In this document: piece by piece, positions 21,001-24,000 of the stretch
Layout: every line of letters starts with the position of its first letter
Position numbering within the stretch: the stretch's first letter is position 1
From: Carcharhinus amblyrhynchos
Taxonomy: Eukaryota
Length of the DNA stretch: 64,000 bases
NCBI GenBank assembly: GCA_965287045.1
Contig: OZ336886.1
Coordinates: 2,976,001-3,040,000, forward strand
Reading direction: 5' to 3'
Made by a program: the position numbers

Positions 21001-24000
21001 TTCTTGATGATTCCTCTGGCAATTTCTACTCCCACCTCAGCCTTCCCATTTGACTGCGGATAGTGTGGGGAAGTGTAGTGTTGAATTTCCCAACCCTTTC
21101 TGAATCAGCTGGACTCTTCGCTTGTGAATTGAGGACCATTGTCACTCGTCACAAAGTCTGGAATGCCAGAACAAATGAAGCGAGTTTTCAGGCATTCTAT
21201 CATTTCTCCTGATGGCACTGAAGTCAGCTGGTCTTAGTCCCAGTAAGAAGTCTCACATCACCAGGTTAAAGTCCAACCAATTTATTTGCTAGTAAATTTG
21301 GTGGGATTTTAACCTGGTGTTGTGAGACTTCTTATTGTGTTTACCCCAGTCCAACGCCAGCATCTCCACATCATGACTACTTAGTCCCAGTAGTCAGAAT
21401 AGTTGTCTATAGTGACAAGACAATGAGTTCCTGCTATAGTGAAGAAGTCTATCCCCAGCTTCGTCCATGGTCTGTCATGCGTCATCCATGGCTCTCTAGC
21501 TTGTTTACCTTGCTACTTGTCACAAGCACTCCACTGGCCAATCAGGTTTTTCATTTCATTGTTTATGTTTGGCCAGTAGAGGGCATCTCTTACCTTCCTC
21601 AGACTCAATTCAATTCCTTGATGGTTTGCATAGATGAACTTCAGCATCTTTCCTCTCATTTCCTTAGGGATGATGACTCTATTTGCTTTGTATAAGATGC
21701 CATCTTGGGCTGTCAAATCATGTCAGTATGTCCAATATGCTCTTGTGACCACATCCACTCATCACTACTTCTAATGCTCGGAGAGTTGCATCCTATTGGG
21801 TATCTTGCTTGAATTGAGTCGGATGCATTGTCAGAATCAATGCCTCTTTTGGGTTAATGGCTTCCAATTCATTTTGAGATGTTGCCTCATGTTGAATCTG
21901 GAAGATTTCACACTTCATTGTCCCATCCTGAACTTTCTTCTTAGAAGCGTTGCTCTCGACAGCGGGTCAGCGATCTACATCGGTTTCCCTTCTTGTATGT
22001 CATGTCCAGATGATTTGAAGAAAGTAACATGCTCTGCAGATGCTTTGAAACAGAGAGCAGTGGTTTTGAGAAAAATGCTTTGTAGTGATTGGTGGTCAGA
22101 ATAGTCTCTCCTAAGCAGCAACTGATGAAAATGTTCACAAGCAAGAATAATAGCCAGGCACTCTTTCTCGATCTGAGTGTAGTGCCATCTAGTTGTACTT
22201 GCCTCCATTAGTCTAGATAGTCTATATAGGACATGTTATGTCAAGACTTTCAGCATTGTGCCTTGTCAGCCAGCTGAGATTGGTGAGGCTTGGAGCTTGC
22301 ATCTAACTGCTGTCCAGGGGCCATGCCCCCTTCAATGGTTTAACTTCCATCCCGTTTTACACGCCTCTGTCAGGAACAGCTGGCCAATCACACCGATGCA
22401 AATTAGACCTGAAATGTCATGGAGAAAAGCCCCATCAATGGGCAACTGATCCTCAAACATGGTCTGCATGCGAATCCAACTGATTGTCCTTACTGCATTG
22501 AGGTTGCTCCAAGATCTGTTTCTCTGGTGTCACACTGCAAGGTGATTTTATCGTTGATGCTATAGTATTTCAGTACTGGCATTGTCATCACTCATTGTTG
22601 GAGTTTTGTGAACACAGCATCTTGTTCTGTGCCCCAATACCACCGCACCTACTTGGCACTGAGCTCTGTGCAATGCCTCACACACCAGTGGCAAAGTGGG
22701 CAAAGATTTTGTGAAATAGTTCACAAATCCAGCAAATCACTGCACTGCTTTCGCATCTGTTGGTCGCTGCACCGTTGCTGTAGATCTCACCTGTTTTGGG
22801 CAGGGGAAGGACTCACTAGACAGTGATGATCTCACACAGAGTTGAGAGCAGGGTCTGCTCCGTCACCTACAGTATTTTGTCCTGGAGATTCAGTGCATAA
22901 CACTGGGACACAGAAGGCACAGCCACATTCAGGGGAGGTATTTGCAACAGGTGCAGTGGCAATTCTAACATTATGTGGGGGTATTGGATGGTTTGATGGG
23001 ATGGGGGGTCTTGAAAGGTCAGGATGTAGGTGACCTTGAGAAACAGAGAGTCAGATTAACGAGGGGCATGGGGATGTCAATGCTGAAGGGAATGGGAGAG
23101 GATAGGCAACAGGTAGAGGAGGATAAGTGGGTGACAAGGGGAGTTAGAAGGTGTTAATGCACTCACATTTGTTCCTAAGGTTCTGCTATTTACAGTATAA
23201 TTCACACCTAAATTTGATCCTCCATCCCGCATTTACCCAGCTACATCCGCCAATTCTGTGCCCAAGTGTCCAATCTATCTATATCTTGTTGTAGCCTCTG
23301 ATGATCCCCAGCACCATCAGCAACTCCACCAATCATCATGTCATCTGCAAACTTACTAATCAGATCACCCATACTTTCCTCCAGATCAATTGTATATACT
23401 ACAAAAAACAGATCCCTGCACTGATCCCTGAACAACACTACTAGCTGCAAATCTCTATTCTGAAAAACACCCTTCCATCACTACTCTCTGTCTTTTATGA
23501 CCAGGCCAATTATGTATCCCTGTAGTCAGTCCAACCCAAACCCTATATGATTTTAGCTTTTGAATCAGCCTACCATGTGCGACCTTGTCAAATGTCAAAC
23601 ACCTTGTCAAACTCCATATAAAGTACATACACAGCCCGTCCCTCAACAATTGTCTTTGTCATCTCCCTCAATATAAACAAGACGAAGGGGATAGTCATCA
23701 ATTTCAGGAAGTGTAGTGGAGAACATGTTCATGTCTACATCAGTGGGGCCGAAGTAGAAATAGTCAAGAGCTTCAAGTTTTTAGGTGTGCAGATCACCAA
23801 CAACCTGTTTGCAGCAAACTACCCAGCCTTCAGGAGAACAGCGACCCCGACACAACACGATCCTGCCACGGCAACCTCTGTAAGACATGCTGGATCATTG
23901 ACCTAGATACCACCATCACACACGAGAACACCATCCACCAGGTACATGGTACATAGTCATACAACTTGGCCAATGTTGTCTACCTGATACATGCTGGAAA

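What the first reader, a model, noticed from the sequence alone, without database searches (positions are those of the whole stretch)
21233..21392. Ultra-short foldback insertions: inverted arm + arm + one-sided tail + 10-13 bp TSD
Seen: four independent insertions (16553-16861, 21241-21379, 33768-33907, 60673-60808) share one architecture. The inverted copy always starts at the same position (AGTAAGAAGTC), the inversion point varies, and a 36-40 nt tail (TGTTTACCCCAGTCCAACGCCGGCATCTCCACATCA) occurs on one side only. TSDs are 10, 13, 13 and 12 bp. In two cases the end of the TSD overlaps the arm start (CAGTA here, AG at 33768). Established: PLEs form inverted pseudo-LTRs with a short tail. Inference: these are not MITEs but separate abortive two-ended reverse-transcription products, with one priming at the tail end and a second at a fixed internal site aided by target microhomology. 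They would record the integration mechanism.
Basis: partly seen in the sequence, partly recalled or inferred. Interest (0 to 1): 0.7.

Follow-up and report, generated by a model that had tools for sequence, protein, structure and literature searches.

The report
Tiny head-to-head Penelope-like retrotransposon insertions
These four short hairpin-shaped repeats are severely truncated insertions of a Penelope-like retrotransposon, showing that family's usual inverted arms, one-sided tail and target duplications, so they are a clean natural example of a known integration pattern and not a new kind of element.

Summary
Four insertions (16553-16861, 21241-21379, 33768-33907, 60673-60808) each have an inverted arm starting within 3 nt of one position, a direct arm, a 34-42 nt tail on the right only, and exact 10, 13, 13 and 12 bp target duplications. 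All four inversion junctions differ.

They belong to a Penelope-like element (PLE). Two longer copies run into a decayed ORF end that matches the C-terminus of an 881-aa protein with an RT domain and a GIY-YIG-type end. A minimal hammerhead motif, read by eye, lies 62 nt upstream of the arm end.

An inverted 5'-truncated copy with a 30-40 bp tail at one end is the published PLE hallmark (PMC8557442, PMC3846280). A purified lizard PLE extends both target strands and starts reverse transcription at two sites that bracket the tail (PMC11167929). Its microhomology clause holds in only 2 of 4 cases. No genome-wide census or empty-site check was possible.

Two things remain unexplained:
- Tail presence follows the strand at 12 of 12 element ends.
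- Three hairpins measure 97-100 nt despite having different junctions.

Verdict: new member of a known kind, of modest interest.

The parts
16541..16550 (.). Foldback A, left target-site duplication CACAGATGAG, followed by 2 extra bases AG (16551-16552)
16553..16644 (-). Foldback A, inverted (antisense) arm, 92 nt. It starts at CAGTAAG and reaches the CTGACGA box of the hammerhead motif.
16645..16827 (+). Foldback A, direct copy, 183 nt, containing the hammerhead-like motif and about 85 nt of upstream element sequence. A 6-nt insertion creates a 14-nt direct repeat at 16769-16782 / 16790-16803.
16828..16863 (+). Foldback A, tail. Its last 2 nt (CA) are shared with the right duplication at 16862-16871.
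21233..21245 (.). Foldback B, left duplication CTTAGTCCCAGTA. Its last 5 nt (CAGTA) are also the start of the arm.
21241..21297 (-). Foldback B, inverted arm, about 57 nt
21295..21337 (+). Foldback B, direct arm, about 43 nt. It overlaps the end of the inverted arm by a few A/T bases (2-5 nt, ambiguous).
21338..21379 (+). Foldback B, tail, 42 nt, followed by the right duplication at 21380-21392
33757..33769 (.). Foldback C, left duplication TCTATTTAGAAAG. Its last 2 nt (AG) are shared with the start of the arm.
33768..33816 (-). Foldback C, inverted arm, 49 nt, followed by a 12-nt filler (33817-33828) that contains a 7-nt tandem duplication
33829..33866 (+). Foldback C, direct arm, 38 nt. The stem with the inverted arm is perfect over 37 bp.
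33867..33907 (+). Foldback C, tail, 41 nt, followed by the right duplication at 33908-33920
60661..60672 (.). Foldback D, left duplication TTATACAACCTC, with no overlap with the arm
60673..60738 (-). Foldback D, inverted arm, 66 nt. It starts at GTAA and reaches the AAAGCTAGTG part of the hammerhead motif.
60737..60772 (+). Foldback D, direct arm, 36 nt, with a 2-nt (TT) overlap with the end of the inverted arm
60773..60808 (+). Foldback D, tail, 36 nt, followed by the right duplication at 60809-60820
14578..15022 (-). Single 5'-truncated copy without a tail. It starts at AGTAAGAAG, like the inverted arms. Its inner end encodes the ORF C-terminus (…TEQRLIAKFHTHEDSLNQELGFMSHY, then a stop). No target duplication was found.
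25177..26995 (+). Single 5'-truncated copy with a tail (about 26955-26995). It has a decayed endonuclease coding end (WYIGET…, PFGEHL…, with stops and a frameshift) and is interrupted at 25572-26720 by an unrelated RT-bearing insertion.
32423..32565 (+). Single 5'-truncated copy, 143 nt, with the hammerhead-like motif and a tail that ends early (…CTCCACA)
58060..58184 (-). Tail-less inverted copy (58060-~58160) followed by a 23-nt sense segment (58162-58184) and then unrelated DNA. It looks like a snap-back. No target duplication was found.

Best explanation
Each foldback is one integration event of a Penelope-like retrotransposon (RT plus C-terminal GIY-YIG endonuclease).

Proposed mechanism:
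1. The target was nicked on both strands 10-13 bp apart.
2. Both 3' ends primed reverse transcription of the 3' region of the element RNA.
3. The bottom strand started at the distal start site, so its copy carries the 34-42 nt tail.
4. The top strand started at the proximal start site, just upstream of the tail, so its copy is tail-less and is read inverted.
5. Both cDNAs stopped after 36-183 nt.
6. Their free ends were joined head-to-head by end joining or template switching, leaving 2-5 nt overlaps or a short filler.

Shown here: the anatomy, the PLE kinship, the independence of the four events, and the two classes of element end.

Taken from published biochemistry on another PLE: extension of both strands, and two start sites bracketing the tail.

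Inferred: that both primings happened within a single event, that synthesis was abortive, and how the junction was sealed.
For: - Exact duplications of 10, 13, 13 and 12 bp flank each whole composite. The random control gave 0.11%.
- Junctions differ in 4 of 4. Arm D and copy A carry parental sequence that B and C lack.
- In the nhmmer census, all 6 minus-strand matches end at profile positions 237-247 (no tail) and all 6 plus-strand matches reach 275-280 (tail). The family therefore has two discrete end types, and the single copies show them too.
- Either arm can be the longer one: A is 92/183, D is 66/36. That fits two independent cDNAs.
- PLE kinship: the ORF fragment at window:25287-25535 (X at its one stop) matched 38 library proteins at E<=0.001. 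One is P0017, 881 aa, matched at residues 810-874. It has RVT_1 at 370-559 and, read by eye, the motifs SADKGG, YIDDIF and WYVGET. P0003 gives GIY-YIG at 19 bits, below Pfam's cut-off of 22.6. Atlas neighbours of the P0017 C-terminus carry GIY-YIG in 27-47% of members (a lead only).
- Literature: PMC8557442 (passages) describes an inverted 5'-truncated copy next to the element and a 30-40 bp tail often at one end only. PMC3846280 (passages) describes an insert with an inverted pLTR, a 31-bp tail and a 9-bp TSD. PMC11167929 (main text read) reports that the purified protein cleaves and extends both strands and that the tail is the sequence between the two RT start sites.
Against: - Only 4 complete foldbacks were seen, and no genome-wide census was possible.
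- In vitro, PMC11167929 saw no difference in start-site use between the strands. Exactly one tail in 4 of 4 foldbacks, always on the same side, therefore needs an extra coupling that is not explained.
- Two cDNAs covering the same RNA stretch need either two template molecules or strand displacement. Neither is shown.
- The 58060 copy has a 23-nt snap-back-like segment, so self-priming does occur in or near this family.
- The hairpin parts of B, C and D measure 97, 99 and 100 nt despite different junctions. Random abortive synthesis does not predict that.
- None of the inferred nick positions lies at the ATT motif reported for the lizard element (read).
- Pfam found no GIY-YIG in the window's own decayed fragments or in P0017.
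- Rfam found no hammerhead.
Confidence: 0.75

Rival explanations
1. Self-priming (snap-back). A single cDNA folds back on itself and copies itself, producing the inverted repeat. PMC3846280 proposed this for head-to-head PLE repeats that have palindromes at the junction.
For: - PMC3846280 discussion (passage).
- B and C are near-symmetric hairpins with 10-12 nt centres.
- The 58060 copy has a short sense segment right after the inversion.
- The inverted arm is the longer one in B, C and D.
Against: - A copy templated on a tail-less first arm cannot acquire the tail.
- A copy templated on a tailed first arm should carry the tail too. The inverted side carries a tail in 0 of 4 complete foldbacks.
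- A (92/183) and D (66/36) are asymmetric in opposite directions. One direction of snap-back cannot give both.
Confidence: 0.1
2. A short non-autonomous foldback element (MITE-like or SINE-like) that is copied as a unit by the PLE machinery. On this view the different centres arose later by deletion at the unstable palindrome centre.
For: - B, C and D have nearly the same size: inserts of 134-140 nt and hairpin parts of 97-100 nt.
- The foldback arms form a closer group (89% identical between loci) than they do with the four single copies (78%).
Against: - Junctions differ in 4 of 4. D and A contain parental sequence absent from B and C, so no single master fits.
- Copying a hairpin RNA by target-primed reverse transcription would give variable 5' (left) ends and constant junctions. 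The opposite is seen.
- The left end coincides with the end of single tail-less copies.
Confidence: 0.1
3. A cut-and-paste DNA transposon derivative (a true MITE) with terminal inverted repeats.
For: Inverted termini of 34-44 nt or more, flanked by direct repeats.
Against: - The duplication length varies (10, 12, 13, 13).
- One terminus carries a 34-42 nt non-inverted extension.
- The arms are the 3' region of a retroelement that encodes an RT/GIY-YIG ORF.
- No transposase was found among the 52 ORFs of at least 110 aa that were scanned.
Confidence: 0.02

Closest known systems
Canonical endonuclease-bearing Penelope-like elements: an insertion unit with an inverted 5'-truncated copy and an optional 30-40 bp tail (PMC8557442, PMC3846280)
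   Same: Head-to-head inverted copy, a tail at one end only, short target duplications of variable length, heavy 5' truncation, a hammerhead-like motif in the repeat region, and an ORF ending in a GIY-YIG-type domain.
   Different: Here both copies are truncated to 36-183 nt. The whole insertion is a 136-309 nt hairpin with no ORF and no direct pLTR. No full-length or tandem copy lies in the window.
PAc (Poseidon of Anolis carolinensis) in vitro system, PMC11167929
   Same: Two discrete reverse-transcription start sites separated by a tail-sized interval downstream of the hammerhead motif. Both target strands are usable as primers. Homology to the target is not required, and 2 of 4 inverted ends here have none.
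   Different: - In vitro, start-site use did not differ between the strands. Here each event uses one site per strand, in one polarity.
- The inferred nicks here are not at ATT.
- In PAc the sites lie 111-118 nt into the ORF. Here the reading frame that opens at the ATG of the CTGATGA box closes after 8 codons (read by eye).
- That paper's main text does not connect extension of both strands with inverted repeats.
L1 twin priming
   Same: The second target strand primes internally on the RNA, giving an inverted segment joined to a direct 3' segment inside one pair of target duplications, with microhomology at the junction.
   Different: In L1 the two segments come from adjacent, non-overlapping parts of the RNA, and the internal priming site is variable. 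Here both arms cover the same stretch, and the internal site is fixed to within about 3 nt.
Animal non-LTR retrozymes (PMC7229834 seen as a listing only; bioRxiv 10.64898/2026.07.22.740005 seen as abstract and passages)
   Same: Short non-coding derivatives of PLE repeat regions that carry hammerhead motifs.
   Different: Retrozymes are direct tandem repeats. These are single inverted pairs, and three of the four lack the hammerhead motif altogether.
MITEs and foldback DNA transposons
   Same: A small hairpin-shaped repeat flanked by direct repeats.
   Different: Asymmetric termini (a tail on one side), variable duplication length, a different centre at each locus, and retroelement parentage.

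Membership tests
Penelope-like elements (EN+, canonical) | [quoted passage not shown] | tested here: met
   Only the decayed C-terminal end of the ORF is present in the window (14883-15022 minus strand; 25177-25535 plus strand). One frame piece matched 38 library proteins, including the C-terminus (810-874) of the 881-aa P0017. P0017 has RVT_1 at 370-559 and, by eye, DKG, YIDD and WYVGET motifs. GIY-YIG itself is seen only below threshold: P0003 at 19 bits against a cut-off of 22.6, plus Atlas neighbours. Pfam was negative on the window fragments and on P0017. No PDB relative was found.
Penelope-like elements (EN+, canonical) | Pseudo-LTRs formed by partial tandem copies | tested here: inconclusive
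   No tandem or full-length copy lies among the 8 loci in the window. A 64-kb window cannot settle this.
Penelope-like elements (EN+, canonical) | A minimal hammerhead ribozyme motif in the repeat region (features listed in PMC4209133) | tested here: inconclusive
   Read by eye on the 6 aligned copies that reach this region:
- CTGANGA box in 5 of 6.
- GAAA in 5 of 6.
- An extra base after position 9 in 6 of 6.
- G10.1-C11.1 in 2 of 6, plus 3 with G-T at a CpG.
- Palindromic AGCT in 5 of 6.
Rfam gave no hammerhead match at gathering score over the whole window or at E<=10 over 14000-34000. Cleavage was not tested.
Penelope-like elements (EN+, canonical) | A 30-40 bp tail present at one end only | tested here: met
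   A tail of 34-42 nt lies on the right end of 4 of 4 foldbacks and on none of their left ends.
Penelope-like elements (EN+, canonical) | An inverted 5'-truncated copy adjacent to the direct copy, inside one pair of short target duplications | tested here: met
   Seen in 4 of 4, with duplications of 10, 13, 13 and 12 bp.
MITE (DNA transposon derivative) | Symmetric terminal inverted repeats reaching both ends, and a duplication of fixed length | tested here: not met
   There is a one-sided 34-42 nt extension, and the duplications are 10, 12, 13 and 13 bp.
MITE (DNA transposon derivative) | Copies share one internal sequence or junction | tested here: not met
   4 of 4 junctions differ. This covers the window only.
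L1-type twin priming products | The inverted and direct segments derive from adjacent, non-overlapping RNA regions, with priming on poly(A) | tested here: not met
   Both arms cover the same 36-92 nt of the element, and there is no poly(A).
Animal non-LTR retrozymes | Head-to-tail tandem repeats, each with a hammerhead motif | tested here: not met
   The arms are inverted, not tandem. B and C lack the motif and D has only part of it.

The most novel reading that the evidence does not exclude
The choice between the two reverse-transcription start sites is not free. In every event one target strand uses the proximal site and the other uses the distal site. In this window the polarity is the same at all 8 loci: 12 of 12 element ends have a tail on right-facing ends and none on left-facing ends, single copies included.

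This could mean either of two things:
- A dimeric element RNP sits on one RNA with its two active sites a tail-length apart. That might also explain the constant 97-100 nt hairpins.
- A chromosome-scale strand asymmetry, such as replication or transcription direction, decides which strand receives which site.
Probability: 0.12. Interest if true: 0.7.

Novelty: new member of a known kind. Interest (0 to 1): 0.33.

Why it matters
PLE integration is the least understood of the major retrotransposition mechanisms, and the first in vitro system dates from 2024.

Very short insertions that keep intact target duplications preserve both priming points and the joining point of a single event. A genome-wide table of them would provide in vivo data on four questions:
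- how often each start site is used;
- whether the two strands are coupled;
- how much target microhomology is involved;
- how the junction is repaired.

In annotation practice, such hairpins are easily mislabelled as MITEs or as microRNA-like hairpins.

Tried and rejected
- Rfam over the whole window at gathering score gave 0 matches.
- Rfam at E<=10 over 14000-34000 gave 28 matches, none a hammerhead. The best were microRNA precursor models laid on hairpins B and C, far below their gathering scores (48 against 90 bits, and similar). I take these as a shape resemblance only.
- Pfam on 52 ORFs of at least 110 aa found only RVT_1, in two ORFs that belong to other elements.
- Pfam on three ORF fragments of the family found no GIY-YIG. 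The one weak MbeB_N hit (18 bits, below cut-off) I regard as chance.
- A search for target duplications around the four single copies found nothing longer than 8 nt, and that 8-mer lies inside coding sequence.
- A stem-loop around the proximal start site: the consensus fold has 13 pairs, none with a compensatory change. The single-sequence folds of the 3' region are no more stable than shuffles, with z of +0.88 and -0.10. So there is no support for such a structure.
- The weak nhmmer matches at 52722-52750 (E 3.7e-4; it lies inside what looks like another repeat, and it diverges right after TGTGT), 8444-8490, 17076-17101 and 23803-23838 were not counted as copies.
- The PDB sequence search with P0017 gave 0 matches.
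- The cluster look-up gave no names.
- Literature: Penelope + 'twin priming' gave 3 papers, none on PLE structure judging by title and abstract listing. Penelope + shark + elasmobranch gave 3 papers, seen as listings only. Penelope-like + head-to-head gave 3. Penelope-like + 'internal initiation' from 2024 gave 2. None states the two-ended priming model for inverted PLE copies. Most subscription-journal papers, which likely include the 2005-2006 PLE reviews, are not in the searched library.
- Not used: genome contigs, because it holds bacteria and archaea only. Closed: metagenome contigs and viral contigs. As a result no related eukaryotic DNA was examined.
- Supplementary figures S1 and S2 of PMC11167929 were not opened. 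They map genomic ends onto the start sites and could bear on strand coupling.
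Full report
**What is there**

The four loci named in the finding were read directly. Each is a hairpin-shaped insertion bounded by exact direct repeats of 10, 13, 13 and 12 bp (coordinates are in the parts list). In a control of 200,000 random pairs of 20-nt windows at the same spacings, 0.11% shared a 10-mer or longer, so four out of four is not chance.

The 36-nt tail motif occurs 5 times at up to 3 mismatches, always on the plus strand, against 0 expected. 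The arm motif occurs 11 times, against 0 expected.

The inverted arm begins at CAGTAAG, within CAGTA|AGAAG, at (AG)TAAG or at GTAA. This is one position to within about 3 nt. The tail runs 34-42 nt and stops at variable points between ...CACAT and ...CATGACTA.

Folded as single strands, B and C form near-perfect hairpins with z of -11 and -15 against shuffles.

I built an nhmmer profile from window pieces and searched both strands. It finds eight loci. Besides the four foldbacks they are:
- a tail-less minus-strand copy at 14578-~15020;
- a tailed plus-strand copy at ~25177-26995, split by a 1.15-kb unrelated RT-bearing insertion at 25572-26720;
- a tailed 143-nt plus-strand copy at 32423-32565;
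- a tail-less minus-strand copy at 58060-~58160, followed by 23 nt of sense sequence.

Four weaker matches (52722-52750, 8444-8490, 17076-17101, 23803-23838) were inspected or judged by score and not counted.

**What family it is**

The two longest copies run from the arm region into a decayed reading frame. It reads …WYIGET…, …LPFGEHL…GHSASDL… and …EQKLIVKFHLHEYSLNQGL at 25177-25535, and …TEQRLIAKFHTHEDSLNQELGFMSHY followed by a stop at 14883-15005.

I sent one frame piece, with its single stop read as X, against 1.84 billion representative proteins. It matched 38 at E<=0.001 and 12 at E<=1e-10. Of the 38, I scanned 11 with Pfam:
- P0017 (881 aa, matched at residues 810-874) has RVT_1 at 370-559.
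- P0023 has a weak RVT_1.
- P0003 has GIY-YIG at 19 bits, below the curated 22.6, over the matched stretch.
- Three hits carry unrelated host domains upstream of the match (7tm_1 twice, FAM210A-B once). I take these to be gene models that swallowed an element fragment.
- Five had no family.

P0017 shows SADKGG, YIDDIF, a Cys/His cluster and …AWYVGET…R…H by eye. PMC8557442 names the DKG motif as diagnostic of PLEs and the CCHH motif as universal to them, Chlamys apart (passages).

Atlas neighbours of the P0017 C-terminus carry GIY-YIG in 27-47% of members, together with RVT_1 (a lead only). Pfam did not find GIY-YIG in the window fragments or in P0017 itself, and the PDB holds no sequence relative.

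About 62 nt upstream of the arm end lies CTGATGA-A-GGAGC…GCTCC-GAAA-GCT(A/T). Read by eye, this fits the minimal hammerhead features listed in PMC4209133. Counts are in the membership table. Rfam does not detect it. I therefore file the family as a PLE, with the endonuclease and ribozyme features resting on sub-threshold or by-eye evidence.

**How the structure compares with what is known**

- PMC3846280 (passages) describes an insert with two direct pLTRs and one inverted pLTR, a 31-bp tail and a 9-bp TSD.
- PMC11167929 (abstract and whole main text) shows that a purified lizard PLE protein cleaves and extends both target strands. [quoted passage not shown]

The four foldbacks are the short extreme of this architecture. 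Both copies are truncated to 36-183 nt, so no ORF and no direct pLTR remains.

**Mechanism**

The left arm on the top strand reads as cDNA (antisense) attached directly to the left copy of the duplication. That is what extension of the top-strand nick on the RNA would give. The right arm plus tail is what extension of the bottom-strand nick from the distal site would give.

Three observations favour two independent initiations over a single snap-back:
- The inverted side lacks the tail in 4 of 4. A strand copied from a tailed arm should have it, and a strand copied from a tail-less arm cannot gain it.
- The longer arm is the direct one in A (183 against 92) and the inverted one in D (66 against 36), B and C.
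- The same two end types occur on single copies.

The junctions show a 2-5 nt A/T overlap (B), a 2-nt TT overlap (D), a 12-nt filler with a 7-nt tandem duplication (C), and no clear overlap (A). This is the kind of scar left by end joining or template switching.

Against amplification as units, the four junctions differ, and A and D contain parental sequence absent from B and C.

**The microhomology clause**

Overlap between the target and the start of the inverted arm is 0 nt (A, with 2 extra bases), 5 nt (B), 2 nt (C) and 0 nt (D). At the tail ends it is about 2 nt (A), unknown (B), 0 (C) and about 1 (D). The 5-nt case is unlikely by chance, about 1 in 1000 per junction by hand calculation. 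Microhomology is clearly not required, which agrees with PMC11167929.

**Results that do not fit neatly**

1. Tail presence follows strand at 12 of 12 element ends in the window, single copies included. A conservative hand estimate of the chance is about 1 in 128. Fisher's test on 6/0 against 0/6 gives p = 0.002, but the ends are not independent. In vitro, no strand difference in start-site use was seen.
2. The hairpin parts of B, C and D are 97, 99 and 100 nt despite different junctions.
3. The 58060 copy looks like a snap-back and has no tail and no duplication.
4. None of the four single copies has a detectable duplication.
5. The inferred nicks are not at ATT, and the duplications are 37.5% G+C against 43.8% for the window. 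They are only slightly AT-rich (read).
6. Foldback arms are 92% identical within a locus, 89% between loci, and 78% to the single copies. The foldbacks therefore come from a younger subfamily, and the within-versus-between contrast is too small to say anything about template identity.

**What stayed unchecked**

- No eukaryotic genome collection was available.
- I did not open the supplements of PMC11167929.
- The classic PLE reviews and the L1 twin-priming paper are cited from other papers or from recall.
- The main text of PMC11167929 does not itself connect extension of both strands with inverted copies, and four library searches found no paper that does. The library lacks most subscription journals, so this is not a claim of absence from print.

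**Verdict**

This is a real feature, correctly read. It is a new family-level example of a known PLE integration pattern, and it is consistent with and illustrates the 2024 biochemical model. It is of modest interest by itself. It would be of higher interest if the strand polarity or the constant hairpin length holds genome-wide.

Noticed in passing
all 8 family loci, 14578-60808: Tail presence follows strand. All 6 plus-strand matches carry the tail and all 6 minus-strand matches stop at the proximal site, single copies included. The chance is roughly 1 in 128 by hand estimate.
   Followed up: partly
21241-21337, 33768-33866, 60673-60772: The hairpin parts of foldbacks B, C and D are 97, 99 and 100 nt long although their inversion junctions differ. 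Foldback A is 275 nt.
   Followed up: partly
58060-58184: A tail-less inverted copy is followed by a 23-nt sense segment complementary to its own inner end (2 mismatches in 19), and then by unrelated DNA. It looks like a snap-back. No target duplication was found.
   Followed up: partly
25572-26720 and 24108-25073: An unrelated RT-bearing fragment (RVT_1, E 1.3e-11, plus strand) is nested inside the PLE copy and ends in a short TTCTTATG-type repeat. A second weak RVT_1 ORF lies on the minus strand just upstream. Both are probably LINE-type elements. They were not classified.
   Followed up: no
21233-21345 and 33763-33869: Foldbacks B and C score 30-48 bits against several Rfam microRNA precursor models, far below the gathering scores. 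Hairpins like these could be mis-annotated as microRNA genes.
   Followed up: no
16769-16803: The direct arm of foldback A has a 6-nt insertion relative to its inverted arm, which creates a 14-nt direct repeat. Three of the four substitutions between the arms in the 63-nt inner stem are at CpG sites.
   Followed up: no
P0005, P0006, P0009 (library proteins): Three proteins that match the element's endonuclease end carry host domains upstream (7tm_1, FAM210A-B). These are probably gene models that absorbed an element fragment.
   Followed up: no
32230-32420 and 52660-52820: Other interspersed repeats abut or resemble parts of the family. The 29-nt nhmmer match at 52722-52750 lies inside one of them and diverges from the tail after TGTGT. 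These repeats were not identified.
   Followed up: no
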